64,000 bases of DNA from Gammaproteobacteria bacterium. Lineage in GTDB: Bacteria > Pseudomonadota > Gammaproteobacteria > Eutrophobiales > Eutrophobiaceae. Shown one piece after another: positions 651 through 60,917 of the stretch (position 1 is the stretch's first letter; each line of letters begins with the position of its first letter). Under the pieces are notes generated by a model that was given only the letters and a program-made list of their open reading frames with translations, was not told the DNA's origin and ran no database searches. The translations under genes were made by a program, and so were the position numbers. The stretch covers positions 2,701,384 to 2,765,383 of the forward strand of contig OZ244905.1 of assembly GCA_965221695.1 (NCBI GenBank), read 5' to 3'.

Positions 651-664
651 AAAAATGGTTTATA

Positions 665-16281: not shown

Positions 16282-16626
16282 TCAACGGTTGATATCATGC
16301 CTGGCTTCAAACTCAGCTGTGAACTCATCAAGTGGCCGGCCTTGTTCAGACAGGGCATGTCTGATAATCCGCACGCTCTCGGCATAGTTTGCCAATACCG
16401 CTATTTTTTCGTAGGTTTCAGAATCCTGGACTACCACAGCAGCGTTGCCATTGACCGTTAGAAGCTCTGGACGTTTGCTTTTGTTCGGTCGTGTAATATG
16501 CGTCGCCGGTTTCCGGCTGAAGTCAGTGACCGATTGTTGTTCAAACGTGAGCGGAGATTTCGTGTAGGCTTCTGCCACTGGAGATCCTCGGTACGCAGGC
16601 AAAAAAAAGCCGCCAAGGTTGCGCAT
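16282..16626 (-). CDS. Phd/YefM-family antitoxin, orphan
   Basis: The central block is PELLTVNGNAAVVVQDSETYEKI. No toxin ORF lies downstream on the minus strand, because the DUF5615 gene abuts it. The exact start is uncertain. Confidence 0.55.
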   Translation of the reverse strand: MRNLGGFFLPAYRGSPVAEAYTKSPLTFEQQSVTDFSRKPATHITRPNKSKRPELLTVNGNAAVVVQDSETYEKIAVLANYAESVRIIRHALSEQGRPLDEFTAEFEARHDINR

Positions 16627-17142
16627 TGTTAAGAGGCGTGACGGCTATGTTACTCATATTATAGTTCCTGCTGGAAACAGATTCAAGAGAGAGATAGTGT
16701 TTTCCATATTAGCGGGAGATTCTGTTAGCAACAAATTGATTTGTCCGCTTTTGTAACAAATCAATTCCTCTTTTATCTTTACACTGACACCGTCAAGATG
16801 TTAGCGGGAGCTTCTTGTAAATCCCTGATATGGTTGTTAAAGTATTTTGCATGGAAAAATTGATCGAAAGAATAAAACTAGGTCTTGAGAAAGGGCATTA
16901 TTCACGCGAAGAACAAGTATGGGGTAGTGGCGCCGAAGTGGAATTTGAAATACCTACACGCACTTAGAGTTCAACAGCCAGTTGACACAGTCGGCTAACC
17001 TGACAAAAAAGCAAACCAACCGTTATCGGTTGAAAAACTAATCTCTGGTTTAGACAGTTGTGAAACCACAATGGAGGGATCGTTGTCCGAGACCGAATGA
17101 ATCATAACGTGGAATACAAGCCGTTTGACAGCGCGTAAAGAA

Positions 17143-22538: not shown

Positions 22539-22698
22539 TTAAGGAACCTCTGATTAAGTCAGAGGTTCCTACGATACAAGGATGTATCGTCAATATCAAT
22601 GACTGTAAGGCATTGATATTGTGAGGAAAACAAAAATCGCATTTTTGTTTTCCGTACTCTGACAAGTCCTGGATGGACTTGTTCAGAGTTTTCTTAAG
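22539..22698 (-). repeat. MITE-B element, full copy, inverted orientation
   Basis: Reverse complement of the 60745-60900 copy with few differences. Confidence 0.9.
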
Positions 22699-29984: not shown

Positions 29985-31910
29985 ATGATAAAAAGTATAT
30001 TATTGTGGGTAGTCATCGCCCTGGTCATGATGATGGTATTTCAGAATTTTGGGGCCCGGCCCATCGATACCACCATTCCCTATTCGCAGTTTATTCTGGA
30101 TGTAAAAACAGGCAAAGTGCTCTCCGTCATTATCGAGGGCAACACCATCTCCGGCAACCTGGCGGATGGGTCCCGGTTCAACACGTACAGTCCGGAAACC
30201 AGCAATGATGCCCTGATTGGCACCCTGCTGGATAATAACGTGGAGGTGCTGGGCGCCGAGCCCAATAAGAATTCGTTTTGGGCGCACGCTTTTATCTCCT
30301 GGTTTCCTATCTTACTGTTACTGGGCATTTGGATTTACTTCATGCGCCAGATGCAGGGTGGCGGCGGCCGCGGCGCGCTATCGTTTGGCAAGAGCCGGGC
30401 GCGACTGTTGAATGAAGACCAGGTGAAGATTACATTTAACGATGTTGCCGGCGTTGAGGAGGCGAAAGAAGAAGTCGTCGAGCTGGTTGAATTCCTGCGC
30501 GATCCGGGCAAGTTCCAGAAACTGGGAGGTAAGATTCCACGGGGCGTATTGATGGTAGGCTCACCGGGCACAGGCAAGACCCTACTGGCGAAAGCGATAG
30601 CCGGTGAGGCGCAGGTTCCGTTTTTTACCATTTCCGGTTCGGATTTCGTGGAAATGTTCGTCGGCGTAGGCGCCTCGAGGGTGCGCGACATGTTTGAACA
30701 GGCGAAAAAACACGCGCCCTGTATCATCTTCATTGATGAAATCGATGCGGTAGGACGCCACCGCGGCGCTGGTCTTGGCGGCGGTCATGATGAACGTGAA
30801 CAGACACTCAACCAGCTTCTGGTTGAAATGGATGGGTTTGAAGGCAACGAAGGCATTATCGTCATAGCCGCGACCAACCGGCCCGATGTGCTGGATCCGG
30901 CTTTGCTGCGCCCTGGGCGGTTTGACCGGCAAGTGGTCGTCCCATTGCCGGATATCCGGGGGCGTGAACAGATTCTCAAGGTGCATTTGCGCAAGGTCGC
31001 ATTAGCCGATGATGTTGATCCCTCTATCATCGCGCGCGGCACGCCCGGGTTTTCCGGAGCGGACCTGGCCAACCTGATTAACGAAGCGGCGCTGTTCGCG
31101 GCGCGGGCCAACAAGGAACAGGTTGACATGGAGGAGTTTGAACGGGCTAAGGATAAGGTGATGATGGGCGCCGAGCGGCGTTCCATGGTGATGACTGATG
31201 AGGAAAAGAAACTCACTGCCTACCACGAAGCTGGTCATGCCATTGTCGGACGGCTTGTTCCCAATCATGATCCAGTCTACAAGGTTACTATTATTCCGCG
31301 CGGACGCGCCCTGGGTGTCACCATGTTCCTGCCGGAACAGGACAGGTTGAGCTATTCCCGAGAGTTTTTGCAGAGCCAAATCTGTTCCCTGTTCGGCGGC
31401 CGTATCGCCGAGAGCCTGATTTTCGGAGAAGATGCCGTCACAACAGGGGCGAGCAACGATATAGAGCGCGCCACGCTGCTGGCAAGAAACATGGTAACCA
31501 AATGGGGGCTGTCCGAAAAAATGGGACCGCTCGCCTACCAGGAGGATGAAGGAGAAGTCTTCCTGGGACATTCCGTGACCAAGCACTCAACTGTTTCCGC
31601 TGCCACACAGAATGATATTGACGCAGAGGTAAGGCGCATCATTGATTTGAACTATCAGCGCGCAAAAGAGTTGCTTGAAGCAAACATGGAGAAGCTGCAC
31701 ATGATGGCGGAGGCCCTGGTCAAGTATGAAACCATCGATACCGGTCAGATTGACAGCATCATGGAAGGCAAGGAGCCCGGACCGCCGGCTGATTGGCGCA
31801 ATAATCATAAGACGCGTGGCACACAGTCCGGACCTGATGAAACACAGCAGAAAACCGATGATGAGCCAGTTGAAGGCCCTGCCATGGACGGGCCGGCCCG
31901 TCCAGCCTGA
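29985..31910 (+). CDS. ftsH: ATP-dependent zinc metalloprotease FtsH
   Basis: Two N-terminal TM helices, the AAA module (GPPGTGKT-like [11 protein letters not shown]) and the HEAGH zinc site. Confidence 0.98.
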
Positions 31911-31979
31911 AGTATAACCTCTCAGCCACGGAACAGGTTGTCCCGGGTTTTCTTGCCGCCAGCAACAATTCTCTATCGT

Positions 31980-33317
31980 ATGCAGGTTAATTCACGCAAA
32001 TACTTCGGCACCGACGGCATTCGCGGCAAGGTGGGCGAGGAACCCGTCACGCCCGATTTTGTCATGAAATTGGGCTGGGCTATTGGCAAGGCGCTGCATA
32101 AAAACAACGCAGGGCCCATTCTTATCGGCAAAGATACTCGGGTGTCCGGTTATATGTTTGAATCGGCGCTGGAAGCGGGACTGTCTGCCGCAGGCGTTGA
32201 TATTCGCCTGCTTGGCCCAACGCCGACGCCGGCCGTAGCCTACCTGACAAAAAATACCCGCGCCGAGGCAGGTATAGTGATCAGCGCTTCCCACAACCCC
32301 TATTTTGACAATGGCATCAAGATCTTTTCCAGAAACGGCAGGAAACTGCCGGATGCTGTCGAATTATTGATAGAAGAGCATCTGGCGAGTTCCATTGAGG
32401 TTGTGGAACCGAACAAGCTGGGCAAGGCGCGCCGGATTACGGACGCGGCGCGCAGGTATATAGAGTACTGCAAAAGCAGGATCGACTGTGACCTGAACGG
32501 TATTCGTATGGTGGTCGATTGCGCTAACGGCGCAGCCTACAGGATTGCGCCCAAGGTGTTTGAGGAATTGGGCGCCACGGTCAATGCGATAGGTGTGGAA
32601 CCGGATGGCTTAAATATAAACAACGGCTGCGGCGCCACCAAACCGGCAGTTTTGCAACAGACCGTGCTGGAATGCCAGGCGGATGTCGGCATCTCGCTGG
32701 ATGGTGATGGCGACCGCTTGATTATGGTCGATCATAAGGGCCAACTGGTGGATGGCGACGAGTTGCTCTACATCATTGCAAATCACCAACGAAAGACGCT
32801 CAATGGGGGCGTTGTGGGCACGCAGATGAGCAACCTGGGACTGGAGCAAGCGCTGAGGGATATGGGATTTGAGTTTTACCGGTCGCAGGTGGGAGACCGA
32901 TATGTCGCGGAAATGCTGGATGAAAAAAATCTGACGCTGGGAGGTGAACAATCGGGCCATATCGTAAACAGGAATTTTTCGGATACGGGTGATGGCATCA
33001 TTTCCGCGCTACAAGTATTGAAAGCTATGTTGGACACCGGAGAGAATTTGTGTGCCTTAAAAAGTGGCATGAAAAAATTTCCACAGGCGTTATTGAATAT
33101 AGTCCTGCGCAAACCTGTGCGGCTTCAGGATTATCCGGAGATCGACGGCATGGTGAGAGAAGTTGAAAAACAGCTCGATGACCTGGGACGGGTGTTGTTG
33201 CGCTGTTCGGGTACCGAGCCTGTGTTGCGGGTAATGGTGGAAGGCCGGGATGCCGGTAAAGTGCACAAGCTGACGCGCAAACTGGCCGGGGACATTGATG
33301 AGTTGATCAGTGGTTAA
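31980..33317 (+). CDS. glmM: Phosphoglucosamine mutase
   Basis: KYFGTDGIRGKVG N-terminus and the SASHNP phosphoserine loop. The start was taken at the ATG at 31980. Confidence 0.95.
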   Translation: MQVNSRKYFGTDGIRGKVGEEPVTPDFVMKLGWAIGKALHKNNAGPILIGKDTRVSGYMFESALEAGLSAAGVDIRLLGPTPTPAVAYLTKNTRAEAGIVISASHNPYFDNGIKIFSRNGRKLPDAVELLIEEHLASSIEVVEPNKLGKARRITDAARRYIEYCKSRIDCDLNGIRMVVDCANGAAYRIAPKVFEELGATVNAIGVEPDGLNINNGCGATKPAVLQQTVLECQADVGISLDGDGDRLIMVDHKGQLVDGDELLYIIANHQRKTLNGGVVGTQMSNLGLEQALRDMGFEFYRSQVGDRYVAEMLDEKNLTLGGEQSGHIVNRNFSDTGDGIISALQVLKAMLDTGENLCALKSGMKKFPQALLNIVLRKPVRLQDYPEIDGMVREVEKQLDDLGRVLLRCSGTEPVLRVMVEGRDAGKVHKLTRKLAGDIDELISG

Positions 33318-34911
33318 AGAGAACCGGCAGAAACGCATACTGGTAGCCGACAGGATTTCGCCTGAAGGCAAGGAATTCCTTGACGGCCAGGAGAATTTCA
33401 TCACAGATCATATCACCGGACTTGATGAGGCCGGGTTATGTGAGAAAATCGGCGCGTACCATGCGGTAATCGTGCGCAGCGCCACGACGATATCGGCGCC
33501 AGTCCTGGACGCGGCCGGCAGGCTTGAAGTAATCGGCAGGGCCGGCATTGGTGTCGATAATATTGACGTCAACCATGCCACGGGCAAAGGCGTTGTGGTG
33601 CTCAACACCCCGGACGCGAACGTAACGACAACGGCGGAACTGACGTTGGCGCATCTTTTTTCCCTGAGTCGAAACCTGCCCCAGGCCGACTCTTCAGTGA
33701 AAGCAGGAGAATGGAAGCGCGCCCGCTTCATGGGTGTGGAACTGAGCGGCAAGACCCTGGGCATCATCGGCTACGGGCATATCGGCAGGATTGTGGCAGC
33801 CAAGGCGCTGGCCCTGGAAATGCTGGTAATCGCCCATGATCCGTTTGTTACCGAAGAAAAGTTTCTCGCCGACGGCGTTACCGGCGTCGGTCTCGATGAA
33901 CTGCTCAGCGAGGCGGATTTTGTCAGCGTGCATTGCCCGTTGAATGACAAGACCCGTAACATCATCAATGCCGACCGGCTCAAGACAATGAAACGCGGCG
34001 CGCGGCTGATCAACTGCGCCCGCGGCGGGCTCGTCGACGAAACCGCGTTATATGAAGCGCTCAAGAGCGGGCAATTGTCCGGCGCGGCGCTGGATGTATT
34101 TTCCCGCGAGCCTCCGGATGGTTCTCCCCTGTTGGAACTCGATAACGTATTGCTGACGCCGCACCTTGGCGCATCGACCCGGGAAGCACAGGCTGCGGCC
34201 GGCATCGAGATAGCACAGCAGGTCAGCATTTACCTGAAGACCGGTGAACCCATTAACGCGATCAACCTGCCGGCGGTATCATCGGAGGAACTGGTGAAGC
34301 TGCAGCCGTACATGGCGCTGGCGAGACGCCTGGGAAACCTGCTCGGTCTTATGATTCCGGACTCCATACACCGGCTGGAAGTGTCCCTGTTTGGCGAAGC
34401 CGCAGAGCGGGACATGAGCAGCATCGCCACGGAGGGGTTGGTGGGGTTATTGGGTGTCCATATGTCAACCGAGGTAAACCGGGTGAACGCAAAACATATC
34501 GCCGAGCAACAGGGTTTGAGCCTGGTGGAGGCCCGTGGTGGCGAACATCCGGATTACCATTCAGCGGTCAGCCTTTCGGTGCATAACGGTGAAGGCGAAA
34601 CGCGGGTTGTCGGGACACTGTTCCAAAGAAGATACCCGCGCCTGATCAGGATCAACGATTACGAGATAGAAGCCGTGCTGGAAGGACACCTGCTGGTTAC
34701 CAGGCATAATGATCAACCCGGCGTGATCGCCGCCATCAGCAACCTGCTGGCAGGTGAAAAGATCAACATTTCGCGTATGCAACTGGGGATCGTATCCGGC
34801 AGCGACAAAGCGGTCGCGGTGATTGGCGTGTCGACCCCGCTGAACAATGAACTGATGAAGGAACTGGCTCAAATCGAGGCGATAAACAAGGTGATACAGG
34901 TCAGCCTGTAA
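33310..34911 (+). CDS. serA: D-3-phosphoglycerate dehydrogenase (long form with C-terminal ACT domain)
   Basis: GIIGYGHIGR NAD motif. The 533 aa length fits a C-terminal ASB/ACT region. The GTG start overlaps the glmM end by 8 nt. Confidence 0.9.
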   Translation: MVKENRQKRILVADRISPEGKEFLDGQENFITDHITGLDEAGLCEKIGAYHAVIVRSATTISAPVLDAAGRLEVIGRAGIGVDNIDVNHATGKGVVVLNTPDANVTTTAELTLAHLFSLSRNLPQADSSVKAGEWKRARFMGVELSGKTLGIIGYGHIGRIVAAKALALEMLVIAHDPFVTEEKFLADGVTGVGLDELLSEADFVSVHCPLNDKTRNIINADRLKTMKRGARLINCARGGLVDETALYEALKSGQLSGAALDVFSREPPDGSPLLELDNVLLTPHLGASTREAQAAAGIEIAQQVSIYLKTGEPINAINLPAVSSEELVKLQPYMALARRLGNLLGLMIPDSIHRLEVSLFGEAAERDMSSIATEGLVGLLGVHMSTEVNRVNAKHIAEQQGLSLVEARGGEHPDYHSAVSLSVHNGEGETRVVGTLFQRRYPRLIRINDYEIEAVLEGHLLVTRHNDQPGVIAAISNLLAGEKINISRMQLGIVSGSDKAVAVIGVSTPLNNELMKELAQIEAINKVIQVSL

Positions 34912-34921
34912 ATTCCCAATA

Positions 34922-36166
34922 ATGTTAATCAAGGCTTTCAGAGGTTATCGCCCCGACAGGGACAGGGTTGCCAGGGTTGCATCAAGACCGTATGACGTGA
35001 TCACAACGGAAGAAGCCAGGGAGGAAGCAGCCGGCAACCCGTATTCCTTCCTGAACATCGTCAAACCGGAGATCGGTTATCCCGCCGGCACAGAACCCGG
35101 TGACCCGGAAATGTACCGTGCCGCGGCGGCAAACTTCCAAGCCTTGGTCGATAGCGGGACATTTGTCCGGGATGAACAGGAATGCCTGTATATCTATGAA
35201 CTAAGTGTGAACCGGCGTCCGAGGACGGGCATTGTCGCCGCCGCCGCTGTGGACGATTACCTGGACGGCCGTATCAGGAAACACGAATTGACCCGGTTTG
35301 ACAAGGAGGCGGACCGGGCGAACCATATTCGTACAACAATGCTCAACGTGGAGCCGGTGATGTTTGCCTATCGCGATGACCGGCGAATGGGCGATCTTGT
35401 AGATTCAATCAAATCGGGGCAACCGGAGTACGACTTCGTTGACGAGGACTCGGTGCAGCACAGGTTCTGGATCGTCAATGAGCCTGGGACCGTTGCTGCG
35501 ATTATCCGCGCATTTGCCGGCATCCCCGCAACTTACGTGGCTGACGGTCACCACCGCACCGCTGCTGCCGCGATCGTCAGCCAGCAACTGGACAGTGAAG
35601 GCCAAAAGAGCAATGCGGATCAGGGACATCATTTCTTTCTGGCTGTACATTTTCCCGACAGCGAACTGGAAATTCTCGATTACAACCGGCTGGTCACCGA
35701 CCTCAACGCTCTTGAACAAGATGAATTCCTGCGCGAGTTGGGGCTGGCGTTCGTAGTTGAGAGGACTGGAGGGCGGCCCGTAAGACCGAAGCAACCCGGC
35801 GTCATGGGCATGTACCTCGCAGGCAGTTGGTACCGCCTGAGCGCGCGGCCCGGTACGTATAATCCCGATGATGTGATGTCGGCGCTGGGCGTCAGCATCC
35901 TGTCCGACCTGATCCTGGCGCCCATACTGGGCATTCACGACCAGAGGACCGACCCGCGCATAATCTATGTCGGTGGCGTGAGCGGCACAGAGAAGCTCCA
36001 GGAGAGGGTGGACAGCGGCGAAATGGCTGTTGCCTTCACTCTGCACCCGGTATCGATACAGGAACTGATGGCCATCGCTGACTCCGGCAGGATTATGCCA
36101 CCCAAGGCCACCTGGTTTGAACCGAAACTGCGCAGCGGCCTTGTAGTCTACAGTCTTAAGGACTAA
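34922..36166 (+). CDS. DUF1015 domain-containing protein
   Basis: MLIKAFRGYRP...ASRPYDVI N-terminus and ADGHHR motif. This family commonly sits next to serA. Confidence 0.8.
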   Translation: MLIKAFRGYRPDRDRVARVASRPYDVITTEEAREEAAGNPYSFLNIVKPEIGYPAGTEPGDPEMYRAAAANFQALVDSGTFVRDEQECLYIYELSVNRRPRTGIVAAAAVDDYLDGRIRKHELTRFDKEADRANHIRTTMLNVEPVMFAYRDDRRMGDLVDSIKSGQPEYDFVDEDSVQHRFWIVNEPGTVAAIIRAFAGIPATYVADGHHRTAAAAIVSQQLDSEGQKSNADQGHHFFLAVHFPDSELEILDYNRLVTDLNALEQDEFLRELGLAFVVERTGGRPVRPKQPGVMGMYLAGSWYRLSARPGTYNPDDVMSALGVSILSDLILAPILGIHDQRTDPRIIYVGGVSGTEKLQERVDSGEMAVAFTLHPVSIQELMAIADSGRIMPPKATWFEPKLRSGLVVYSLKD

Positions 36167-36260
36167 TTCCGCAGCTTTGCCAACCGTTCTATGCGGTTGC
36201 CCTGCGCAGCGATGCAGGGATAATGTGCTGTACCGCATAATCAGCTACAATAACCAGCCC

Positions 36261-36347
36261 GGAGAGGTGCCAGAGTGGTTGAATGGGGCAGACTCGAAAT
36301 CTGTTGTACGCGTCAGCGTACCGTGGGTTCGAATCCCACCCTCTCCG
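36261..36347 (+). tRNA. tRNA-Ser (anticodon CGA)
   Basis: ggagaggtgccagagtggttgaatggg...gactCGAaatc..., a long variable arm (gtacgcgtcagcgtac), T arm gtgggttcgaatcccac, and an acceptor pairing GGAGAGG/CCTCTCC with discriminator G. No CCA is encoded. Confidence 0.9.
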
Positions 36348-36701
36348 TAACATTCATGCCACAGGCGCATCTGGCGCCTGTGGCATGAATGTTGATGCAA
36401 TGGGGTTCGAACCCACGGTAATTAAATACGGGTTCGACAAATTCGCTGGGAGCGAATTTGAACAGCGTAGCTGGCCCCGGAGGGGCAAACTACATGGATG
36501 TAGTTTGTAATCCCACCCTCTCCGTAACATTCATGGCACAGGCGCTTCTGTCGCCTGTGCCATGAATGTTGATGCAATGGGGTTCGAACCCACGGTAATT
36601 AAATACGGGTTCGACAAATTCGCTGGGAGCGAATTTGAACAGCGTAGCTGGCCCCGGAGGGGCAAACTACATGGATGTAGTTTGTAATCCCACCCTCTCC
36701 G
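36332..36701 (+). repeat. Two tandem 177-bp units, each bounded by the 16-nt tRNA-Ser 3' end (three copies: 36332, 36509, 36686)
   Basis: aatcccaccctctccg occurs three times with an exact 177-bp period. Each unit starts with a 20-bp-stem hairpin (36349-36393; 36526-36570). Confidence 0.9.
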
Positions 36702-36705
36702 CCAT

Positions 36706-37896
36706 CTAATAGTCCGGTAAAGTCCGGAGTCTTCCAAGCGCTTCAATGAAATGTGCTAGTGACAGGATGGTTGTGTCCTGGCTGCCGGGGAATGTATCTT
36801 CGCCAGTGTAAACAACAAATTTCTGTTTTACCTTTAAGTCTTCACAGGCCATGTGAAAGCCTTTTTTCAAGGTTGGAGTTCGGCTTGCTTTGATCTCAAC
36901 GGCCCAGTATTCATCAAGACCAAACTCAATTACCAAATCAATTTCTGCCCCAGCAGATGTGCGATAGAAAAACGGATGAGCGCTTGAAGGTAAGGCGTTA
37001 ATAATGGTCTCAATGACAAACCCCTCCCAGCTTTTTCCGAATATAGGATGCCCCAACAAAGCTTCATAATTCGGAATTTGCAGCAAGGCATGCACAAGAC
37101 CGCTATCGCGTACATAGGTACGTGGTGATTTCACCAGCCGTTTTTTGACGTTCCCATGCCAAGGCTCTAGCCTGCGAACCAATAACAAATCAACCATGAG
37201 GTCCAGATATCGACTAACGGTGACACTCTCTACGCCAAGAGAGCTTGCGAGTTTTGACGCGTTCAGTAGTTCACCTTGTGTATGGGCAAGCATGGTCCAA
37301 AAGCGCATCAAGGTCGTTGCTGGAATTCTTGGTCCTAGCTGAGGGATGTCTCGTTCCAGATAGGTGCGAATAAAATTCTGCCGCCACTGGTGACTGGCCG
37401 CATCATCTTCAGCGGCATAGCTGTCGGGAAACCCACCACGTATCCAGAGCTTTTGTAAGGGCTCTCCGGATGTTTCTTCAATTTCAAAAAGGTTTAAGCC
37501 AGTCAGTTCAGAGTAATGAATGCGGCCAGCAAGGCTCTCAGAGCTTTGTTTTAGCAACTCATTGGTTGCCGATCCTAAAACAAGAAAGCGTCCGTTTCCG
37601 CGCCCCTCACGACGTCTGGCATCAATGATTCCGCGCAGTGACATAAACAAATCAGGGTAGCGTTGGACCTCATCGAGAATGACCAGCTTATCTGCATGTA
37701 GTTCTAGATAGTGGGCAGGGTCTTTGAGCTTTTGGAAATCCTCTGGGTTCTCGAGATCCAAATAAACAGATGGTTGCCCTTTGGCGATCTCATGGGCAAG
37801 CGTTGTCTTGCCAATCTGGCGCGGGCCAAGAATGGCAACAGCCGGATTTTGACTGAGACTTTTGATGATTTTCTGTGTAAGCTCTCTTTCATACAT
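36706..37896 (-). CDS. AAA-family ATPase with C-terminal DUF4143-type domain
   Basis: MYERELTQKI...VAILGPRQIGKTTLAHEIA (Walker A), VILDEVQ (Walker B), about 396 aa. The track ORF extends to 37971. Confidence 0.75.
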   Translation of the reverse strand: MYERELTQKIIKSLSQNPAVAILGPRQIGKTTLAHEIAKGQPSVYLDLENPEDFQKLKDPAHYLELHADKLVILDEVQRYPDLFMSLRGIIDARRREGRGNGRFLVLGSATNELLKQSSESLAGRIHYSELTGLNLFEIEETSGEPLQKLWIRGGFPDSYAAEDDAASHQWRQNFIRTYLERDIPQLGPRIPATTLMRFWTMLAHTQGELLNASKLASSLGVESVTVSRYLDLMVDLLLVRRLEPWHGNVKKRLVKSPRTYVRDSGLVHALLQIPNYEALLGHPIFGKSWEGFVIETIINALPSSAHPFFYRTSAGAEIDLVIEFGLDEYWAVEIKASRTPTLKKGFHMACEDLKVKQKFVVYTGEDTFPGSQDTTILSLAHFIEALGRLRTLPDY

Positions 37897-38276
37897 GCTA
37901 GCAATACTAACACAAAATATTAAATATGCAAGGTAAATGTTTTTGTGGTGATCTGTTTCCAATGAAGGCAAAGCGGGATTAGAACCCGCGATACGGTACC
38001 GTGTTCACAACAAAAACCGGCGCTTGGCGAGGAAGGTGTACAGGCGGGTGGTGAACAAGTCGCCGGTACGGCGAACTTTGCGAGGCACAAACCTCTTATC
38101 ACCCAATGTAATTCGGTTTGTATAGTCCGCAACATCCGTAATTGGTTTTGAAAATCCTGTGTCTATGGACAACCCCCCCATACTTGATTAGCATAAGTCA
38201 TAAGGAGGACCTATCGTGAACGTTGATTTCGTGACAAAGCGCCAGTCTGACAATCTCATGCAAATGCCGACCATCC

Positions 38277-38684
38277 ATGTCCAGGATTCGTTGTTATAGT
38301 ATCGGTCGAGACCCCTCCGCATCCATCGTACTGCGTCATGAGACGGTGTCGCGCAGGCATGCAGAGTTGATTCCCGTATCCGGCGGGCAGGTATACGTCA
38401 CGGATTGCGCCAGCGCCTGCGGGACTTTCATCGATAAGGGCAGGCGCTGGGAGAGGCTTACCCAGGATTTCGTCGGCGCAGGCGGCAGGGTGCGTTTCGG
38501 CGAGGTTGAGGTCAGCGTGCAGAGTCTGCTGGCGGACATTGCCCGCTTGCCTGCCGGCGGTGGAACGGGTCCCGGCGGTTCGGCGGAGCCCGGCGGTACC
38601 CCAGGCGCCGATAAGAAGAAACATGTGGATGCCGGCCGCGGGGTCATGCGCGACCCGGAAACGGGCGAGCCGATTCCCATGTAA
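38277..38684 (+). CDS. Small FHA-domain protein with Gly/Pro-rich tail (operon gene 1)
   Basis: YSIGRDPSASIVLRHETVSRRHAEL...VTDCASACGTFI carries the FHA G-R...S-R-x-H...GT pattern. Confidence 0.75.
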   Translation: MSRIRCYSIGRDPSASIVLRHETVSRRHAELIPVSGGQVYVTDCASACGTFIDKGRRWERLTQDFVGAGGRVRFGEVEVSVQSLLADIARLPAGGGTGPGGSAEPGGTPGADKKKHVDAGRGVMRDPETGEPIPM

Positions 38685-38699
38685 TCGGACAGACAGACC

Positions 38700-39473
38700 A
38701 TGAACCAGAGAATGAGGATATTCATAGGGGCGCTGGGCGCGGGCGTGATCTTCATCGGCCTGCTCAGCCTGTTTTTCTCCGAAGGTTTCTTCGCCGACTT
38801 CCTGCTGGACCGGAATTCGAAGTTCATGCCCTACCCGGTCACGATACAGAATATCATGTGGCTGGTGTTCTTCATCGGGGCGGGAGAATTGCTGTCGCGC
38901 TACCTGCAGACGGACCGGGAAATCAGCCAGATCCGCCTGGGACTGTTGCCGGAGGACAGCACAACCCTATTGCGCAAGCAAGATCTGGGCGGCGTGTACC
39001 AGCGCGTCAAGGAAACCATGCACCCGGCGCCGGGCGCTGCGGAGGATTCCTATTTCCTGCAACGCCTGCTGTCCCGTTGTATCCTGCAGTTCCAGGTCAG
39101 CGGCGCCATTGATAAGGCAAACAACATGTTCAACTCCAGCCTGGAGTTGTTCCAGCACGAGGTCGAGCTGAGGTACAATGCCATTCGCTATATCGTCTGG
39201 CTGATCCCGACCCTGGGGTTCATCGGCACCGTGGTCGGCATCGCGCTGGCGCTCAGCAACGCCGGCAGCGTCGACAACTTCCAGGACCCCACCTTGCTGA
39301 AACAGCTTACCCAGAGTCTCGGCGTAGCGTTCTTTACCACCTTGCTGGCCTTGCTGCAATCCGCGGCGCTGATGTTCGCGCTGCATGTCGTACAAGGACA
39401 GGAGGAAGCGTCGCTGAACCGGATAGGGCAGTATTGCCTGGATAACCTGATTAACCGGTTGTACGAGACTTGA
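38700..39473 (+). CDS. MotA/TolQ/ExbB-family proton-channel-like membrane protein (operon gene 2)
   Basis: Predicted TM helices are present. The C-terminal block IPTLGFIGTVVGIALAL...LGVAFFTTLLALLQSAALMF matches the MotA_ExbB signature PxLGxxGTVxG...AxxTTxxGL. Confidence 0.7.
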   Translation: MNQRMRIFIGALGAGVIFIGLLSLFFSEGFFADFLLDRNSKFMPYPVTIQNIMWLVFFIGAGELLSRYLQTDREISQIRLGLLPEDSTTLLRKQDLGGVYQRVKETMHPAPGAAEDSYFLQRLLSRCILQFQVSGAIDKANNMFNSSLELFQHEVELRYNAIRYIVWLIPTLGFIGTVVGIALALSNAGSVDNFQDPTLLKQLTQSLGVAFFTTLLALLQSAALMFALHVVQGQEEASLNRIGQYCLDNLINRLYET

Positions 39474-39715
39474 TGGGGGTCGCCTGCGCGAGACAAATCG
39501 GCAGGACAGCCGATTTGCGCAGCGACTGCTGCCCGCAGGGTTGTATCCAGGGAAGGATGCAATGAGTGACGGAAGGAGAGAGGAATGACGGGTGGGTTCA
39601 AGAATGACGGTTAAGGGGCGAAGGGAGGTGTCGGCAAGTGGGTGTCGGCAAGTTGAACGCAGGGTGGTTTTCTGTTAAATTTTCATCAACCGCAACACCA
39701 GAAGGGGAGGACATC

Positions 39716-40375
39716 ATGCCGGTAAAACGCGATGCGGACGGGAACATCATAAAGGAACAGACAAGAACTACCGGAGTGGGTGATCCGGTGTTGCCGACCT
39801 TGGGGCGCTCCACTGTCGGCGCCACGGTCGGCCCCGGCAGGTCTCCCGAGACCAACCCCGGCCAGTCATCGGGTTATGAGGCCCAGACGGTGCTGGCAGG
39901 TTCGCCCCGTGTCGCGGAAGGGGAAGCCAGGACCCGGATCTACCGGCCCGGCAGGACGGGGCGGCAACAGCCGGAGACACCGGCTCCAGGTACGGGCGCT
40001 GAGGACGCGACGTCCTCTGCCATGGACGACCCGCCCGTAGGCTGGCTGGTCGTCGTCAGTGGGCCGGGACAGGGGAACTACATGGCCGTCGGCAACGGTT
40101 CGAATTCAGTCGGACGCGATGAGCGCGAGCGAGTGCGCGTGGATTTCGGTGACGAGTTGATCTCCCGCAGCGACCATTCAACGATCACCTACGATCCCAG
40201 GGGTAAGAAGTTTTACCTGCAGCACGGCGCCGGAAAAAACCTCACTTACCTGGAAGGCAAACCTGTCCTGGCGCCGACCGAACTGCCCGGGTTTTCCCGG
40301 ATCACGATTGGGAACACCGAATTGCTGTTCATCCCGCTCTGTTGCGATCAGTTTGACTGGGACGACTACACGTAA
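39716..40375 (+). CDS. FHA-domain protein with Thr/Pro/Gly-rich disordered N-terminus (operon gene 3)
   Basis: The ATG at 39716 is preceded by gaaggggagga. The C-terminus reads GWLVVVSGPGQGNYMAVGNGSNSVGRD...ISRSDHSTITYD...NLTYLEGKPV...ITIGNTELLF. Confidence 0.8.
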   Translation: MPVKRDADGNIIKEQTRTTGVGDPVLPTLGRSTVGATVGPGRSPETNPGQSSGYEAQTVLAGSPRVAEGEARTRIYRPGRTGRQQPETPAPGTGAEDATSSAMDDPPVGWLVVVSGPGQGNYMAVGNGSNSVGRDERERVRVDFGDELISRSDHSTITYDPRGKKFYLQHGAGKNLTYLEGKPVLAPTELPGFSRITIGNTELLFIPLCCDQFDWDDYT

Positions 40376-40384
40376 CAGGTCGTT

Positions 40385-41368
40385 ATGAATGCCCTCAAGC
40401 AGTGGGTGTCGGGAGAGCAGATCCAGGGAGACCGAAATTACCAGGAAGACTATTTCTCGCTCAGCCTGCTTTCCCAGGGCCGGGAACCTCCGGATGAAGA
40501 CTGCCTGCTGCTCGTGCTGGCCGACGGCATGGGCGGACATGCCGGCGGCGCCGTTGCCAGCGAGACGGTAGTCAAGGCATTCCAGGAGGGCTTCAACCGC
40601 GATGCAACCGGGATCGCAGAGCGTTTCAGCGCCGGCATCGACACCGCCAACAACGCCGTCAGGGAAAAACAACAGGCCGATCCGGAACTGTCCGAGATGG
40701 GTTGCACCCTGGTGGCCGCGCTGGTGGTCGGGTCGACCCTTTACTGGACCAGCGTCGGCGATTCCATACTGTGGCTGTGCCGGCAGGGACATTTGCAGAG
40801 ATTGAATGCGGACCATTCCATGAAACCGCTGTTGCTGGACCTGGTCGAATTGGGCAGGATGACCGAAGAAGAGGCGCTGAGCGATTACCGGATCAACCAG
40901 CTACGCTCGGCCATTTTCGGCGAGGAGGTTCAGCTGATTGACATGAACGCGGACGGTTTCCAACTGGAGAGTGGTGATCTCGTTTTACTGGCCAGCGACG
41001 GCCTGGAAACCCTGTCCGGGCAAAGCATGACAGATGTCATCGAGGCCCGCGCGGACGATGCCGATGAGATAGTGAACGCCCTGCTTGACGCAGTTGCCAT
41101 GGCGGGGGTGCGCGGGCAGGACAATACTACGGCGCTGGCGTACCGGGTCGGCCAGGGGCATGATTCACTGCACGGCGTACTGGCGGGCATCAGCACAGAT
41201 GACAAGGATGCCGTATTCGAGCAGCAAGTGAAACCCTCCCGAACCTGCGAGTTGCGCCCGGCACAGGAACAGGAAGCGCCGGCAAAGCGGCCCGGCATCT
41301 TCGCCCGAGCCATACATGCCTTCTCCGGTAGACCGGCGCGTCAAGACACTCGTGACGGGAAGCAATGA
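40385..41368 (+). CDS. PP2C-family Ser/Thr protein phosphatase (operon gene 4)
   Basis: RNYQEDY, LADGMGGHAGG, LASDGL and GQDNTTA motifs. Confidence 0.85.
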   Translation: MNALKQWVSGEQIQGDRNYQEDYFSLSLLSQGREPPDEDCLLLVLADGMGGHAGGAVASETVVKAFQEGFNRDATGIAERFSAGIDTANNAVREKQQADPELSEMGCTLVAALVVGSTLYWTSVGDSILWLCRQGHLQRLNADHSMKPLLLDLVELGRMTEEEALSDYRINQLRSAIFGEEVQLIDMNADGFQLESGDLVLLASDGLETLSGQSMTDVIEARADDADEIVNALLDAVAMAGVRGQDNTTALAYRVGQGHDSLHGVLAGISTDDKDAVFEQQVKPSRTCELRPAQEQEAPAKRPGIFARAIHAFSGRPARQDTRDGKQ

Positions 41369-43104
41369 CAGCAATACGAGCATTGATGTTGTGTGCGCTT
41401 CTGGTGTACCTGCCGGCAGGCAACAGCCAGACGACCGGTGATGACGCAGAAGCGCCGGCTGTTTCCTCTGCCACTGCACCCGCTGTGCCTGCTGATACGC
41501 CCGTGACAACGGAGGACCCAGCGCAAATAGCCGCCCCCTCAGCGGATACAGCCACGGCGATTGCCGCGGTTGTGCAGGTTCCCGAACCCGTAGATTTCAG
41601 TGCGGTGCGGCCCCACCTGGTGGTCATAAGAGAAGGGATGGACGCCGCCGCACGTCGCACGCCGGGATTCAGCATCAGCGACCAGGGCCATATCCTGACT
41701 TATTCCGGAGAATTACGCGCCCGGGAGTACTACCTTGTCTCGGTTGCAGGCGGTCAGGTCTTTACTGCTGCGCTGCTTGATGAAGATGAAGACACCGGCC
41801 TCATGCTACTGAGGATCGCAGGAGAAGGGCACGGCCTCACCGCCCTGAAGTTTGCCAGAACGACGCTGGAAGCCGCGGTGCCGCTCTATGCAGTACGGTT
41901 CGACCCGGTGCGGGCGGAGCCGTTCGTGCCCGTTCCCGGCACGGTCACGCGGTTGCCTGCAACGGATGAGGAGACACCGGCAATCGTGCATAATGCCCTG
42001 TTCAATACGGCGGCCGCCGGGACGCCCTTGTTCAACCGTTGTTACCAGGCGGTCGGTGTCAGCGTGCTGCAAAGGAAGGGCTTCCCGCCGAGAACTCTCG
42101 ATCCCCAACAACAGGGTAGCGCCATCTCCCTGGCGGCCTACTCGTTGAGCGTGATCCTGGCGTCGGCCAACCTGACCCTGCCCATCGCTGAGGCGGAGTG
42201 CCAGAGTGCGGAGGAGGAGGCGCGACTGCGGCTGGAACAACTTCAGCAGGAAAAAGAGGCGGAGCGGGCAAATGCCGAAGCCCTGGCCCTTGCCGCCGCG
42301 GAGGAAGCGCTGCGCAGGGAGGCGGTAATGAACCTGGAGCGGGAAGCAGCGCAACAGCAGCTTGAACAGGCGCGCCAAGAGAAAGAAGCGGCCCTGCAGG
42401 CGGAGCGGGCAAGTGCCGAAGCCGATAAGCGCCGTTTGGAAGAAGAAGCGCAGCAACAACTTGAACAGGCGCAGCAGGAGAAGGAACAGGCCCTGCAGGC
42501 ACAACAGCAGGAGAATGAACAGGCTCTGCAGGTGGAGCGGCAGGAGACCGAACAGGCCCGGCGGGAAGCCCGGCAGGCGACGCATACGGGGAAACAGATC
42601 CTGCTGTTATCGCTAGCGGTCGTCTTCGTCCTGGCGCTGGTCTTCTTCCTGGTCCTGCGCGCCAGGCGTAAACACCTGCAACGCGTGGAACAGGAAAAAC
42701 AGCAGTTCGCCCAGGACCTGGACAGGGCAGAGGCAGACCTGTCAGACGCCTCCGAGAGGGAGCAGCTACGCGCCGGCGCCCCCGACGTGTTTATCGAGGG
42801 TGTCACGCCGCAGAACGAGCGCATCGCCCTGAAAATACCCGGCGCCTCACTGGTCAAACCCTCAGGTGTCACGGTAGGCAGGAGTCCCTCCGAATCCGAG
42901 TTCGTCATCAATCACGAACAGGTCTCCCGCCGCCATTTCCGCCTCATGCTGGTGTCTGGGCAGGTGATGATCGAAGATATGGGCTCGACCAATGGGACCG
43001 TCGTGAACGGCGTGCCCCTCAGTCCCGGCGCCCGGCAGACGCTGGGCGACGGCAGCCGCATGCAGGTCGGGCGCGTGACGATGACGGTGCGGATAGGTCT
43101 CTGA
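41365..43104 (+). CDS. Bitopic membrane protein: signal peptide, trypsin-like (apparently inactive) periplasmic domain, repetitive coiled coil, TM helix, cytoplasmic FHA domain (operon gene 5)
   Basis: Signal MTAIRALMLCALLVYLPAGNSQ. The HtrA-like layout (GFSISDQGHILTY...DTGLMLLRI...AAAGTPLF) lacks an obvious His or Ser. QQLEQAxQEKExALQA repeats follow, then TM ILLLSLAVVFVLALVFFLVL. The FHA region reads VTVGRSPSESEFVINHEQVSRRHFRL...STNGTVVNG. Confidence 0.65.
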   Translation: MTAIRALMLCALLVYLPAGNSQTTGDDAEAPAVSSATAPAVPADTPVTTEDPAQIAAPSADTATAIAAVVQVPEPVDFSAVRPHLVVIREGMDAAARRTPGFSISDQGHILTYSGELRAREYYLVSVAGGQVFTAALLDEDEDTGLMLLRIAGEGHGLTALKFARTTLEAAVPLYAVRFDPVRAEPFVPVPGTVTRLPATDEETPAIVHNALFNTAAAGTPLFNRCYQAVGVSVLQRKGFPPRTLDPQQQGSAISLAAYSLSVILASANLTLPIAEAECQSAEEEARLRLEQLQQEKEAERANAEALALAAAEEALRREAVMNLEREAAQQQLEQARQEKEAALQAERASAEADKRRLEEEAQQQLEQAQQEKEQALQAQQQENEQALQVERQETEQARREARQATHTGKQILLLSLAVVFVLALVFFLVLRARRKHLQRVEQEKQQFAQDLDRAEADLSDASEREQLRAGAPDVFIEGVTPQNERIALKIPGASLVKPSGVTVGRSPSESEFVINHEQVSRRHFRLMLVSGQVMIEDMGSTNGTVVNGVPLSPGARQTLGDGSRMQVGRVTMTVRIGL

Positions 43105-50520: not shown

Positions 50521-50563
50521 AGCGTCGGGTTTCCTTTAATTCAGGTAGGGACGGTTTTACGCG

Positions 50564-50601
50564 CTCTGACAAGTCCAGGATGGACGTGTTCAGAGTTTCC
50601 C
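50564..50601 (-). repeat. MITE-B fragment (first hairpin only)
   Basis: ctctgacaagtccaggatggacgtgttcagagtttccc. Confidence 0.6.
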
Positions 50602-50676
50602 AAAATCATAAAATGTTGACATAGATTACAAAAACACGGCATTATCTGCTTACTATTTTATGGGGGTGTTATAAAA

Positions 50677-60900: not shown

Positions 60901-60917
60901 AGTTTTGGAGACAACTT

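What the first reader, a model, noticed from the sequence alone, without database searches (positions are those of the whole stretch)
36261..36705. tRNA-Ser 3' end present three times, bounding two 177-bp tandem units with a covarying 20-bp hairpin
The last 16 nt of tRNA-Ser(CGA), aatcccaccctctccg, recur at exactly +177 and +354 bp. Each 177-bp unit begins with a long hairpin (aacattcatgCcacaggcgc-atctg-gcgcctgtgGcatgaatgtt). In the second unit the C and G are swapped on both arms (catgGcac / gtgCcatg), so pairing is preserved.

Each unit also contains a T-arm-like ggggttcgaaccc and two more hairpins. Repetition of a tRNA 3' end is the classic scar of integrase-mediated insertion (attL/attR). 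Here, however, the inserts are only 177 bp and carry no genes. They could be remnants of serial integration and excision, miniature non-autonomous integrative elements, or a structured RNA co-transcribed with the tRNA.
Basis: seen in the sequence. Interest (0 to 1): 0.6.

Follow-up and report, generated by a model that had tools for sequence, protein, structure and literature searches.

The report
tRNA-linked repeat array after tRNA-Ser
Two 177-bp copies of a "tRNA-linked repeat", a poorly understood structured element first seen beside E. coli tRNA-Tyr and 5S rRNA genes, follow a serine tRNA gene here, and its four-hairpin core turns out to be widespread in metagenomes.

Summary
tRNA-Ser(CGA) (36261-36347) is followed by two 177-bp units, and its last 16 nt occur three times. 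Two other assemblies reproduce the array. A sister strain has a different copy number.

It is not best read as an integrase scar. Each unit has the layout of the E. coli tRNA-linked repeats (TLRs; tyrT 178-bp repeats/rtT, and rrA/rrB/rrF after 5S rRNA):
- the gene's 3' end;
- a long hairpin in the terminator position;
- an antisense T-arm-like piece;
- a T-arm 5' half;
- a 75-nt four-hairpin module;
- the T-loop 3' half and acceptor strand.

A covariance model built only from metagenome copies hits both window units (E~5e-14) and E. coli rrB (E~5e-15). It also hits a third, tRNA-independent copy at 39492-39566. Across 122 distinct copies, 23 of 26 base pairs show compensatory changes. No Rfam family covers this module.

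The likely mode of action is inferred, not shown: co-transcription with the tRNA, processing into small RNAs, and GGA hairpin loops of the kind through which E. coli RrB binds CsrA. How the family spreads is unknown.

Verdict: a new member of a known but obscure family. The family's breadth is the interesting part.

The parts
36197..36224 (+). Promoter-like site (TTGCCC, 16-nt spacer, GATAAT) upstream of the tRNA
   Evidence: Consensus scan only; function not shown.
36261..36347 (+). tRNA-Ser(CGA) gene, no CCA encoded
   Evidence: ARAGORN; Rfam RF00005, 58.6 bits.
36332..36347 (+). 16-mer copy 1: T-loop 3' half, T-stem 3' strand, acceptor 3' strand and discriminator of the tRNA
36348..36524 (+). 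TLR unit 1 (177 bp)
   Evidence: TRF period 177; unit comparison.
36349..36393 (+). Long hairpin of unit 1 (20 bp, loop ATCTG). It sits where TLRs of E. coli and many metagenome copies carry terminator T1; here there is no T-run.
   Evidence: I1; no terminator call; layout comparison.
36401..36416 (+). TGGGGTTCGAACCCAC: an antisense-like copy of the T-arm. Its TCGAACCC (36407-36414) pairs with GGGTTCGA (36430-36437) to form helix P0.
   Evidence: I11; MFE fold. Equivalent GAGAACCC...GGGTTCGA in metagenome and E. coli units.
36436..36511 (+). Four-hairpin core module of unit 1. P1 36438-36460, P2 36463-36473, P3 36474-36486, P4 36486-36507. GGA lies in the loops of P1, P3 and P4.
   Evidence: CM R1, 70.7 bits, E 5.6e-14; inverted repeats I4 and I6.
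36509..36524 (+). 16-mer copy 2
36525..36701 (+). TLR unit 2 (177 bp). It differs from unit 1 only at hairpin positions 12, 22, 27 and 36.
36526..36570 (+). Long hairpin of unit 2 (19 bp, 7-nt loop; G..C where unit 1 has C..G)
   Evidence: I2.
36613..36688 (+). Four-hairpin core module of unit 2
   Evidence: CM R1, 70.7 bits, E 5.6e-14.
36686..36704 (+). 16-mer copy 3 followed by CCA. CCATCTAATAG resembles the flank after the tRNA in relatives (L004 CCAATATAAT, L009 TAATATAATAG), so this is probably the ancestral tRNA 3' end.
   Evidence: the ancestry is an inference.
36706..37971 (-). Convergent AAA_14/DUF4143 ATPase ORF (neighbour, not part of the repeat). It is absent from sister strain L008, where the join falls at the 6-nt microhomology CCTGTG (unit hairpin 3' arm / window 38156-38161).
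   Evidence: Pfam; BLAST and sequences.
39492..39566 (+). Third, tRNA-independent copy of the core module. It lies between the MotA/ExbB-like and FHA ORFs, and its P1 has compensatory changes (CAAATCGGC/GCCGATTTG).
   Evidence: CM R1, 52.4 bits, E 7e-10; sequence. The ortholog in L008 differs by 1 nt.

Best explanation
The two 177-bp units are tRNA-linked repeats (TLRs). This family was first described at E. coli tyrT (178 bp, 3.14 copies; rtT/RttR). It also occurs after 5S rRNA in rrnA, rrnB and rrnD (rrA, rrB, rrF).

Anatomy (shown). A unit is a partial, interrupted copy of the 3' end of the upstream stable-RNA gene. In order it contains:
- the last 16 nt of the tRNA;
- a long hairpin in the position of terminator T1;
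- an antisense T-arm-like segment that pairs (P0) with a T-arm 5' half;
- a 75-nt module of four hairpins (P1-P4) sitting exactly between the two halves of the T-loop;
- the T-loop 3' half and acceptor 3' strand.

The module is itself a dispersed, structurally constrained element with many copies in other bacteria.

Mode of action (inferred):
1. The array is transcribed from the tRNA promoter, because no terminator intervenes.
2. The transcript is probably cut by the enzymes that mature the tRNA 3' end, since each unit ends in the same 16 nt. This would release structured RNAs of about 177 nt.
3. Their P4 loop (C-A-N-GGA-U-G), P1 loop and P3 loop present GGA motifs. E. coli RrB binds CsrA through motifs of this kind. 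The array may therefore titrate a CsrA/RsmA-type protein in proportion to tRNA transcription. My estimate for this last step is about 0.35-0.4.

Copy number changes by unequal recombination between units. How the first unit arose is unknown.
For: Membership:
- The layout is identical to the E. coli tyrT units: GGATGAGAA..GGTTCGA, then hairpins, then CCCGAAGGGCGAAG.., then GAGTAATCC and the tRNA 3' end (period 178).
- The layout also matches rrnB: 5S 3' end, T1, spacer, module, repeated 5S 3' end, T2.
- CM R1 was built from 23 metagenome copies only. It scores the window modules at 70.7 bits (E 5.6e-14) and E. coli rrB at 68.7 bits (E 4.7e-15).
- The published family definition is met: the 3'-terminal 18-19 bp equal the 3' end of the upstream tRNA/rRNA gene, with 1-5 units per locus (PMC8144298). 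Here 16 bp are shared, which equals 19 minus the unencoded CCA, and there are 2 units.

Family-wide pattern:
- More than 120 metagenome contigs carry hairpin P1.
- CM R1 gives 125 hits at E<1e-4.
- 55 copies lie within 400 nt of a same-strand tRNA or tmRNA, against 1 on the opposite strand. The genes are Ser, Gln, Glu, Arg, Pro, Thr and tmRNA.
- Array periods of 177-189 bp recur.

Structure under selection:
- 90.6% of cells are paired.
- 23 of 26 pairs have double changes.
- The covariation score is 0.378, against 0.03-0.06 when partners are slid, and 0 of 500 shuffles reach it.
- G.U pairs outnumber A.C pairs 74 to 33 on the tRNA-sense strand.

Local constraint: the 131 non-hairpin nt are identical in all four full units of two strains whose flanks differ by 1.2-2%.

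Transcription: there is a promoter-like site upstream, and no terminator-like site on the + strand before 36776.

CsrA: RrB binds CsrA in EMSA, and a GGA-to-UUU mutant loses binding (PMC8144298). C-A-N-GGA-N-G is nearly invariant in P4.
Against: - There are no expression or processing data for this organism.
- The module CM does not reach significance on the tyrT-type TLRs (7-8 bits, E about 0.2-3), although those matches are in register. The link to rtT therefore rests on layout and shared blocks. Rfam RtT does not hit the window.
- Many family members carry a canonical intrinsic terminator between the tRNA and the module (L113, L026, L014, L093). Co-transcription there needs read-through.
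- Dispersed copies show no clear orientation bias relative to flanking ORFs, and some sit inside an IS91-like transposase gene. This fits a selfish DNA repeat as well as an RNA gene.
- The E. coli study found only modest phenotypes. The algorithm it used gave the 19 tRNA-operon TLRs a CsrA-binding score below 0.01.
- CsrA was not found in the window, and the rest of the genome could not be searched.
- The CM-fitted alignment leans towards the model structure.
Confidence: 0.72

Rival explanations
1. Selfish structured DNA repeat. The 75-nt module is a REP/MITE-like mobile element. Its hairpins are needed for its own propagation, for example as single-stranded DNA, and it prefers loop sequences such as GGTTCGA|A (T-loop) and GGTYGA|A (D-loop) in dispensable partial gene copies. 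The array has no host function. The units are kept alike by gene conversion or recent amplification. This is compatible with TLR membership but denies an RNA function.
For: - The module is multi-copy and dispersed: a third copy in the window, up to 8 copies per locus, and module-only tandems of 71-75 bp.
- It appears in either orientation relative to neighbouring ORFs: upstream ORF 23 same vs 15 opposite, downstream ORF 20 same vs 26 opposite.
- It is inserted in an IS91-like transposase gene in several contigs.
- The insertion points are recurrent: after the first 22 nt (D-loop) or 56-73 nt (T-loop) of the tRNA.
- A second mosaic repeat family is in the same window.
Against: - No transposase or RAYT-type gene is associated, and no terminal inverted repeats or consistent target duplication were seen.
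- The excess of G.U over A.C pairs on one strand points to a strand-specific structured molecule. So does the near-invariant CANGGANG apex.
- E. coli RrB is a detected, processed RNA.
- The non-hairpin part of the units is more conserved than the flanks.
Confidence: 0.3
2. Integrase scars or miniature integrative elements. Each 161-bp insert is a gene-less remnant or non-autonomous element (CIME-like). It would have integrated by a tyrosine recombinase whose attP carries the tRNA's last 16 nt, and serial integration would give the tandem.
For: - The 16-mer starts in the T-loop and ends at the discriminator, a typical integrase sublocation (established knowledge).
- The distal copy keeps the CCA and the ancestral-looking flank.
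- Every relative diverges immediately after the tRNA and carries different defence or toxin-antitoxin genes there.
- L009 has an AbiE island bracketed by two tRNA-Ser copies.
- Family members sit at classic integrase targets (tRNA-Ser, Gln, Arg, Thr, Pro and tmRNA).
- Copy number differs between strains.
Against: - None of the nine larger ORFs flanking the array that were scanned matched an integrase family.
- The repeat is really 8 + 16 nt interrupted by the module, not a simple core.
- The same architecture follows 5S rRNA in E. coli, which is not a known integrase target.
- The distance from tRNA to module is constant at 68-96 nt, and unit length is 177-189 bp, at different tRNAs in unrelated contigs. 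Random deletion remnants would not give this.
- The module occurs without any tRNA.
- No viral or plasmid copy was found.
Confidence: 0.12
3. Cis-acting 3' trailer. The hairpin and module serve only the upstream tRNA, in termination, protection from 3' exonucleases or guidance of 3' processing. The tandem is a neutral slippage duplication.
For: - The hairpin sits where T1 sits in other members.
- Each unit repeats the processing-relevant 3' end.
- Rfam classes RtT as cis-regulatory.
Against: - Close relatives (81-83% identical neighbouring DUF1015 protein) have the same tRNA with no unit downstream.
- The module also lies upstream of tRNAs and in non-tRNA sites.
- The window hairpin has no T-run.
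Confidence: 0.1

Closest known systems
E. coli TLRs rrA/rrB/rrF (RrA, RrB, RrF small RNAs between terminators T1 and T2 of rrnA, rrnB, rrnD; Stenum et al. 2021, PMC8144298)
   Same: - The same 75-nt four-hairpin core: CM R1 gives 68.7 bits and E 4.7e-15 on rrB, against 70.7 bits on the window.
- The same order of parts: gene 3' end, hairpin, spacer, module, repeated gene 3' end.
- GGA in the loops of P1, P3 and P4.
   Different: - The upstream gene is 5S rRNA, not a tRNA.
- There is a single unit of about 150 bp flanked by two true terminators. The window has two 177-bp units, a hairpin without a T-run, and the T-arm-derived P0.
- Binding to CsrA and Hfq and processing are shown only for E. 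coli.
E. coli tyrT/tyrV 178-bp repeats (Egan & Landy 1978 and Rudd 1999, as cited in PMC8144298; rtT/RttR; Rfam RF00391 RtT)
   Same: - A tandem array directly after a tRNA gene with an almost identical period (178 vs 177).
- Each unit ends with the tRNA sequence from AATCC in the T-loop to the 3' end.
- The T-arm 5' half (GGTTCGA) precedes the hairpin block.
- Shared blocks: GATGAGAA, CCCGAAGGG(C)G and GAGTAATCC.
   Different: - P1 has a different sequence, and P4 has no GGA loop.
- RF00391 scores the E. coli units at 133-137 bits but does not hit the window.
- R1 scores the tyrT units at only 7-8 bits.
- CCA is encoded in E. coli, giving a 19-nt repeat; here the repeat is 16 nt without CCA.
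CsrB/CsrC and RsmX/Y/Z sponge RNAs
   Same: Several hairpins present GGA in their loops. The P4 apex CA(N)GGAUG resembles the CsrA/RsmE optimum (from memory: RUACARGGAUGU and CANGGANG). Tandem units multiply the number of sites.
   Different: - There is no sequence relationship.
- Those RNAs have their own GacA/UvrY-dependent promoters and many more sites.
- Binding was not tested here.
attL/attR duplications and CIME-type non-autonomous integrative elements at tRNA genes
   Same: A direct repeat of the tRNA 3' end brackets an insert. The locus is a hotspot for variable DNA. Tandem accretion is possible.
   Different: - There is no integrase.
- The insert size is constant and small.
- The repeat is interrupted by a conserved module.
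- The family also occurs at 5S rRNA and at non-tRNA sites.
REP/BIME, ERIC and other mosaic intergenic repeats
   Same: Short, dispersed, hairpin-rich, multi-copy elements, sometimes in tandem or combined with other repeats (in L003 the module is directly followed by the second repeat family).
   Different: - The module has four hairpins in a fixed order, with one sequence-invariant hairpin (P1) and covarying others.
- About a third to a half of copies are fused to fragments of stable-RNA genes.

Membership tests
tRNA-linked repeats (TLR; Egan & Landy 1978, Rudd 1999, Stenum 2021) | Located immediately downstream of a tRNA or rRNA gene, on the same strand | tested here: met
   The units start 1 nt after tRNA-Ser(CGA) on the same strand.
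tRNA-linked repeats (TLR; Egan & Landy 1978, Rudd 1999, Stenum 2021) | The 3'-terminal 18-19 bp of each unit are identical to the 3' end of the upstream gene | tested here: met
   16 bp are identical, running from AATCC in the T-loop to the discriminator. This is the same start point as the 19 bp at tyrT; the 3-nt difference is the CCA not encoded here.
tRNA-linked repeats (TLR; Egan & Landy 1978, Rudd 1999, Stenum 2021) | One to five units of roughly 150-180 bp per locus | tested here: met
   2 units of 177 bp in the window; at least 2.2 in strain L008.
tRNA-linked repeats (TLR; Egan & Landy 1978, Rudd 1999, Stenum 2021) | Sequence and structure similarity to recognised E. coli TLRs | tested here: met
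   CM R1 hits rrB at E 4.7e-15 and the window at E 5.6e-14. The tyrT subtype shows only block and layout similarity.
tRNA-linked repeats (TLR; Egan & Landy 1978, Rudd 1999, Stenum 2021) | Transcribed with the upstream gene and processed to discrete RNAs (shown for rrA/B/F and rtT) | not testable with these tools
   The only indication is a scan showing no terminator-like site between the tRNA and the units.
Rfam RF00391 RtT | Score at or above the gathering threshold of 45 bits | tested here: not met
   No hit, even at E<=10, on 36150-36800. Positive control: the E. coli units score 133-137 bits.
Integrase-generated attL/attR (integrative element or CIME) | A tyrosine or serine recombinase gene in or next to the insert, or a cognate full-length element elsewhere | tested here: not met
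   - None of the nine larger ORFs scanned (29985-36163 and 36709-43101) matched an integrase family.
- No copy in viral contigs or plasmids.
- The genome scan found only the orthologous locus.
- The rest of this genome could not be searched.
Integrase-generated attL/attR (integrative element or CIME) | An uninterrupted direct repeat of the tRNA 3' segment bounding unrelated element DNA | tested here: inconclusive
   A 16-bp direct repeat is present. However, the distal copies are preceded by GGGTTCGA plus a conserved module, so they form an interrupted T-arm.
CsrA/RsmA-sequestering small RNAs | Multiple GGA motifs exposed in hairpin loops | tested here: met
   There are 3 per unit, in the loops of P1, P3 and P4 of the consensus structure.
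CsrA/RsmA-sequestering small RNAs | Demonstrated binding and titration of CsrA/RsmA | not testable with these tools
   Shown in vitro only for the E. coli homologue RrB. No csrA gene lies in the 64-kb window.

The most novel reading that the evidence does not exclude
The RrB-type TLR core is not an enterobacterial curiosity. It would be a widespread, mobile, structurally constrained element of about 75 nt, absent from Rfam, that colonises the T-loop or D-loop of partial tRNA, tmRNA and 5S gene copies as well as other intergenic sites. Its transcripts would act as CsrA/RsmA-type protein sponges whose dose follows stable-RNA transcription. The window's array would then be a growth-rate-coupled regulator made by amplifying such units.
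Probability: 0.25. Interest if true: 0.75.

Novelty: new member of a known kind. Interest (0 to 1): 0.45.

Why it matters
TLRs have been known since 1978 and still have no accepted function or origin. The published conservation is limited to Enterobacterales (PMC8144298).

This locus and the related loci it led to add four things:
- **Breadth.** The family exists in an unrelated uncultured gammaproteobacterium and in more than 100 metagenome contigs with 39-67% G+C.
- **Structure.** Its core is a four-hairpin structure with strong compensatory variation and an invariant GGA-bearing apex.
- **Architectures.** It takes three recurrent forms: downstream units, upstream T-loop-split pseudo-tRNAs and upstream D-loop-split units.
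- **Independent copies.** The core also occurs away from stable-RNA genes.

Together these give a comparative data set for building an RNA family. They also make two open questions testable: whether TLR RNAs are protein sponges, and how an element comes to be bracketed by the 3' end of a stable-RNA gene.

Tried and rejected
- **Phage or plasmid origin.** Three exact-pattern scans of viral contigs found nothing. A distant BLAST of a canonical module against plasmids also found nothing.
- **Any Rfam family for the units.** There were no matches beyond the tRNA at gathering score. At E<=10 there were only a sub-threshold sX4 match driven by the tRNA part (32 bits; gathering score 70) and chance miRNA-like hairpin matches.
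- **Hidden tRNA or tmRNA genes in the units.** ARAGORN finds only the one tRNA.
- **Hammerhead-like core in GGATGAGAAC.** I considered this from memory of the CUGAUGA motif. The sequence does not fit the conserved core, and I dropped the idea without a formal test.
- **IS200/IS605-type or IS91-type miniature element.** The two end hairpins (P1, P4) are unlike each other. Non-tRNA copies have no common GTTC/CTTG or other fixed target. This was a judgement by eye, with no formal test.
- **Inversion of the palindrome as the source of the C/G swap.** The reverse complement of the segment keeps the same bases at positions 12 and 36, so two substitutions are required. Hairpin-templated correction could have copied the second one.
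- **Literal literature search for the P1 sequence.** No hits.
- **Rudd 1999.** The paper is not held in the library.
- **CsrA or Hfq genes in the window.** None found.
Full report
**1. The observation**

The window carries one tRNA gene, tRNA-Ser(CGA), at 36261-36347. It does not encode CCA and is followed by TAA.

Its last 16 nt, AATCCCACCCTCTCCG, occur at 36332, 36509 and 36686 and nowhere else in the 64 kb, even with two mismatches. Shuffles give 0.07 matches. Tandem Repeats Finder reports period 177, 2.1 copies and 97% identity.

Each unit opens with TA and a long hairpin: 20 bp at 36349-36393 and 19 bp at 36526-36570. The units differ at four positions only, all in that hairpin:
- a C:G to G:C swap at unit positions 12 and 36;
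- two changes (positions 22 and 27) that open the loop-closing pair.

The unit folds much better than shuffled sequence (z = -9.5).

The same array, base for base, is in two independent ENA assemblies (L001 and L002), so it is not an assembly artefact.

**2. Close relatives**

The only genome hit for the hairpin in the GTDB species set is the orthologous locus of a sister strain, L008, labelled 'MAG: Gammaproteobacteria bacterium'. Its flanks differ from the window by 1.2-2%.
- It has two full units and the first 35 nt of a third.
- The third unit is cut in its hairpin at a 6-nt microhomology, CCTGTG, with window 38156-38161. That join removes the AAA_14/DUF4143 gene.
- Copy number therefore differs between the two strains.

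All differences among the five hairpin copies lie in the hairpin. L008 units 2 and 3 carry an uncompensated T>A. The other 131 nt are identical in all four full units. About 4 differences would be expected there from the flank divergence, and none is seen. About 1.4 would be expected in the hairpins, and 5 are seen.

The 'covariation' is thus one compensated event. In a perfect DNA palindrome, hairpin-templated correction could also produce it.

More distant relatives (neighbouring DUF1015 protein 74-83% identical) keep the tRNA with the same 3' end. Their sequence diverges immediately after the discriminator base into different defence or toxin-antitoxin genes, and no unit lies downstream.

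The third 16-mer in the window is followed by CCATCTAATAG. This resembles the flank directly after the tRNA in L004 (CCAATATAAT) and L009 (TAATATAATAG). I infer that the distal copy is the ancestral tRNA 3' end.

**3. The lead that changed the picture**

L003, L004 and L009 carry a second copy upstream of their true tRNA-Ser. It holds the first 72 nt of the tRNA up to GGGTTCGA in the T-loop, then an insert of about 85 nt made of hairpins, then AGTCCCACCCTC.

The 3' half of the window unit is the same thing: GGGTTCGA | CAAATTCGCTGGGAGCGAATTTG ... GTAGTTTGT | AATCCCACCCTCTCCG.

So the repeated '16-mer' is the distal part of an interrupted T-arm, not a simple att core.

**4. A large family**

The copies share a fixed plan:
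- **P1:** invariant in sequence.
- **P2:** a variable hairpin.
- **P3:** a small CCCG-NAG-GGG hairpin.
- **P4:** a 9-bp hairpin that varies in sequence, with a near-invariant apex C-A-N-GGA-N-G.
- **Tail:** YAA.

I built covariance model R1 from 23 of these copies. It found 125 copies at E<1e-4 in 92 sources.

On that alignment:
- 90.6% of cells pair.
- 23 of 26 pairs show changes on both sides.
- The covariation score is 0.378, against 0.03-0.06 with slid partners.
- No shuffle out of 500 reaches it.
- Caveat: the alignment is fitted to the model.

G.U pairs outnumber A.C pairs 74 to 33 on the tRNA-sense strand, with the same caveat.

R1 scores the two window modules at 70.7 bits (E about 5e-14). 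It also reveals a third copy in the window at 39492-39566, between the MotA/ExbB-like and FHA ORFs and far from any tRNA.

**5. Context of family members**

- 55 copies lie within 400 nt of a tRNA or tmRNA on the same strand, against 1 on the opposite strand.
- The partner genes are tRNA-Ser (all isoacceptors), Gln, Glu, Arg, Pro and Thr, plus one tmRNA.

Downstream copies have the window's layout:
- the tRNA;
- a long hairpin, often a canonical terminator and often extended by an antisense copy of the tRNA 3' end;
- GAGAACCC...GGGTTCGA (helix P0);
- the module;
- AATCC... to the tRNA 3' end, with an exact run of 8-22 nt.

Upstream copies carry either the first 22 nt of the tRNA (a break in the D-loop) or the first 56-73 nt (a break in the T-loop) before the module.

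Arrays with periods of 177-189 bp recur in L033, L073, L083, L113, L117 and L118. The host contigs span 39-67% G+C.

Copies not linked to tRNAs show no clear orientation bias relative to neighbouring ORFs. One group sits inside an IS91-like transposase gene.

**6. Identification**

From memory, I recalled the E. coli tyrT locus as a tRNA followed by 178-bp repeats that end in the tRNA's last 19 nt. The K-12 sequence confirms this. The period is 178 with 3.1 copies, and each unit reads GGGGAAGGATGAGAAGCTTCGACCAAGGTTCGA, then hairpins, then CCCGAAGGGCGAAG..GAGTAATCC, then TTCCCCCACCACCA. Several metagenome units share this order and these blocks.

The literature names the family tRNA-linked repeats (TLRs) (PMC8144298):
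- There are 22 in ten E. coli K-12 loci, with one to five per locus.
- They are defined by 18-19 bp at their 3' end being identical to the 3' end of the upstream tRNA or rRNA gene.
- They have no known function in general.
- Three of them, rrA, rrB and rrF, lie between terminators T1 and T2 after 5S rRNA.
- Those three are transcribed by read-through and processed to about 173 and 115 nt.
- They bind Hfq and CsrA in vitro, and a GGA-to-UUU mutant loses CsrA binding.
- Their reported conservation is within Enterobacterales.

R1, which contains no E. coli sequence, hits rrB at 68.7 bits (E 4.7e-15). The window module is therefore the RrB-type TLR core.

The tyrT-type units score only 7-8 bits with R1, although the matches are in register. 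In the other direction, Rfam RtT (RF00391) scores the tyrT units at 133-137 bits but hits neither rrB nor the window. The RrB-type core has no Rfam family.

**7. How it most likely works**

Shown: the anatomy, the family membership, the structural constraint on the module, the copy-number difference between strains, and the conservation of the non-hairpin part.

Inferred:
- **(a) Co-transcription.** The array is transcribed from the tRNA promoter-like site at 36197-36224, because no terminator-like site follows on the + strand until 36776.
- **(b) Processing.** Because each unit ends in the tRNA's own 3' segment, the transcript is cut at each repeat by the tRNA 3'-maturation machinery. This follows the E. 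coli TLR RNAs by analogy.
- **(c) Protein binding.** The three loop GGAs per unit may bind a CsrA/RsmA-type protein. P4 reads CUACAUGGAUGUAG, close to the CsrA optimum as I recall it. My estimate for this step is 0.35-0.4.
- **(d) Copy-number change.** Unit number changes by unequal recombination.

The origin of the first unit is unresolved. The bracket of stable-RNA 3' ends also occurs at 5S rRNA and tmRNA. This argues for a property of the element rather than of one tRNA-specific integrase. Integrase involvement is not excluded.

**8. Verdict**

- The interpretation as an integrase scar is not supported.
- The feature is a new member of a known but obscure kind.
- The most interesting result is family-level: the breadth, the covarying four-hairpin core, the absence from Rfam, and the three recurrent architectures.

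Noticed in passing
window 2956-3113, 3815-3951, 22539-22696 (-), 60745-60901; partial copies at 50554-50604 and 3942-3977: A second dispersed repeat family: a mosaic of about 158 nt made of five hairpins, with copies 82-96% identical. On one strand a hairpin reads CGATACAAGGATGTATCG, a GGA loop close to the CsrA SELEX optimum as I recall it. In L003 this element directly follows a TLR-type module (720-794, then 795-892).
   Followed up: partly
L003 8096-8260, L004 8096-8260, L009 9986-10151: A pseudo-tRNA-Ser lies upstream of the true tRNA-Ser(CGA). Its 5' part (the first 72-73 nt, exact in L003 and L004) is followed by the TLR module in the T-loop and a degenerate acceptor 3' strand (CCCTCGTTG). 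It is conserved in three genomes. About 24 nt of upstream leader are duplicated as well.
   Followed up: partly
L009 7163-10436: An AbiEi/AbiEii island plus a fragment of the SDR gene is bracketed by two full tRNA-Ser(CGA) copies and the pseudo-tRNA. It looks like an insertion into this hotspot that regenerated an intact tRNA.
   Followed up: no
window 36706-37971 (-) and 38156-38161; L008 5725-5730: The AAA_14/DUF4143 ATPase gene next to the array is missing in the sister strain. The junction is a 6-nt microhomology (CCTGTG) between the TLR hairpin and DNA 1.6 kb downstream. The palindrome therefore seems to act as a deletion end point.
   Followed up: partly
L083 (oriented minus strand), about 880-1650 of the locus: Three tandem units of 177-179 bp lie upstream of tRNA-Ser(GCT). 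Each consists of the leader, the first 22 nt of the tRNA, the module inserted in the D-loop, and a degenerate anticodon arm. The same D-loop break occurs in L060, L098, L117 and L128.
   Followed up: partly
L046, L048, L015, L067, L106, L116 (module flanks): The module is inserted at the same place in what looks, from memory of the C-terminal motif, like an IS91-family transposase gene on the opposite strand. The arrangement is shared by several contigs. The gene identity was not checked.
   Followed up: no
L095 4555-5067: A TLR-type unit lies 76 nt downstream of a tmRNA gene (tag ANNDNYALAA). It ends in a 17-nt exact copy of the tmRNA 3' end (CCGGCCGCCTCCACCAA).
   Followed up: partly
L117 2417-3424; L110 2141-2286; L018 137-446: Head-to-tail arrays of the module alone (period 71-75 nt), with up to 8 copies in one 4-kb locus.
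   Followed up: no
window 36246-36410: A sub-threshold match to Rfam sX4 (a Xanthomonas small RNA; 32 bits against a gathering score of 70). Its model consists of a tRNA-Ser plus the start of the downstream region and ends in ..GGGGGGUGAGA. That ending resembles the antisense-acceptor/GATGAGAA block of TLR units, so sX4 may itself overlap a TLR.
   Followed up: no
window 663-883 (+) and 16608-16645 (-): A cobalamin riboswitch (86.7 bits) and an abiF RNA motif (40.2 bits; gathering score 37). Neither is related to the finding.
   Followed up: no
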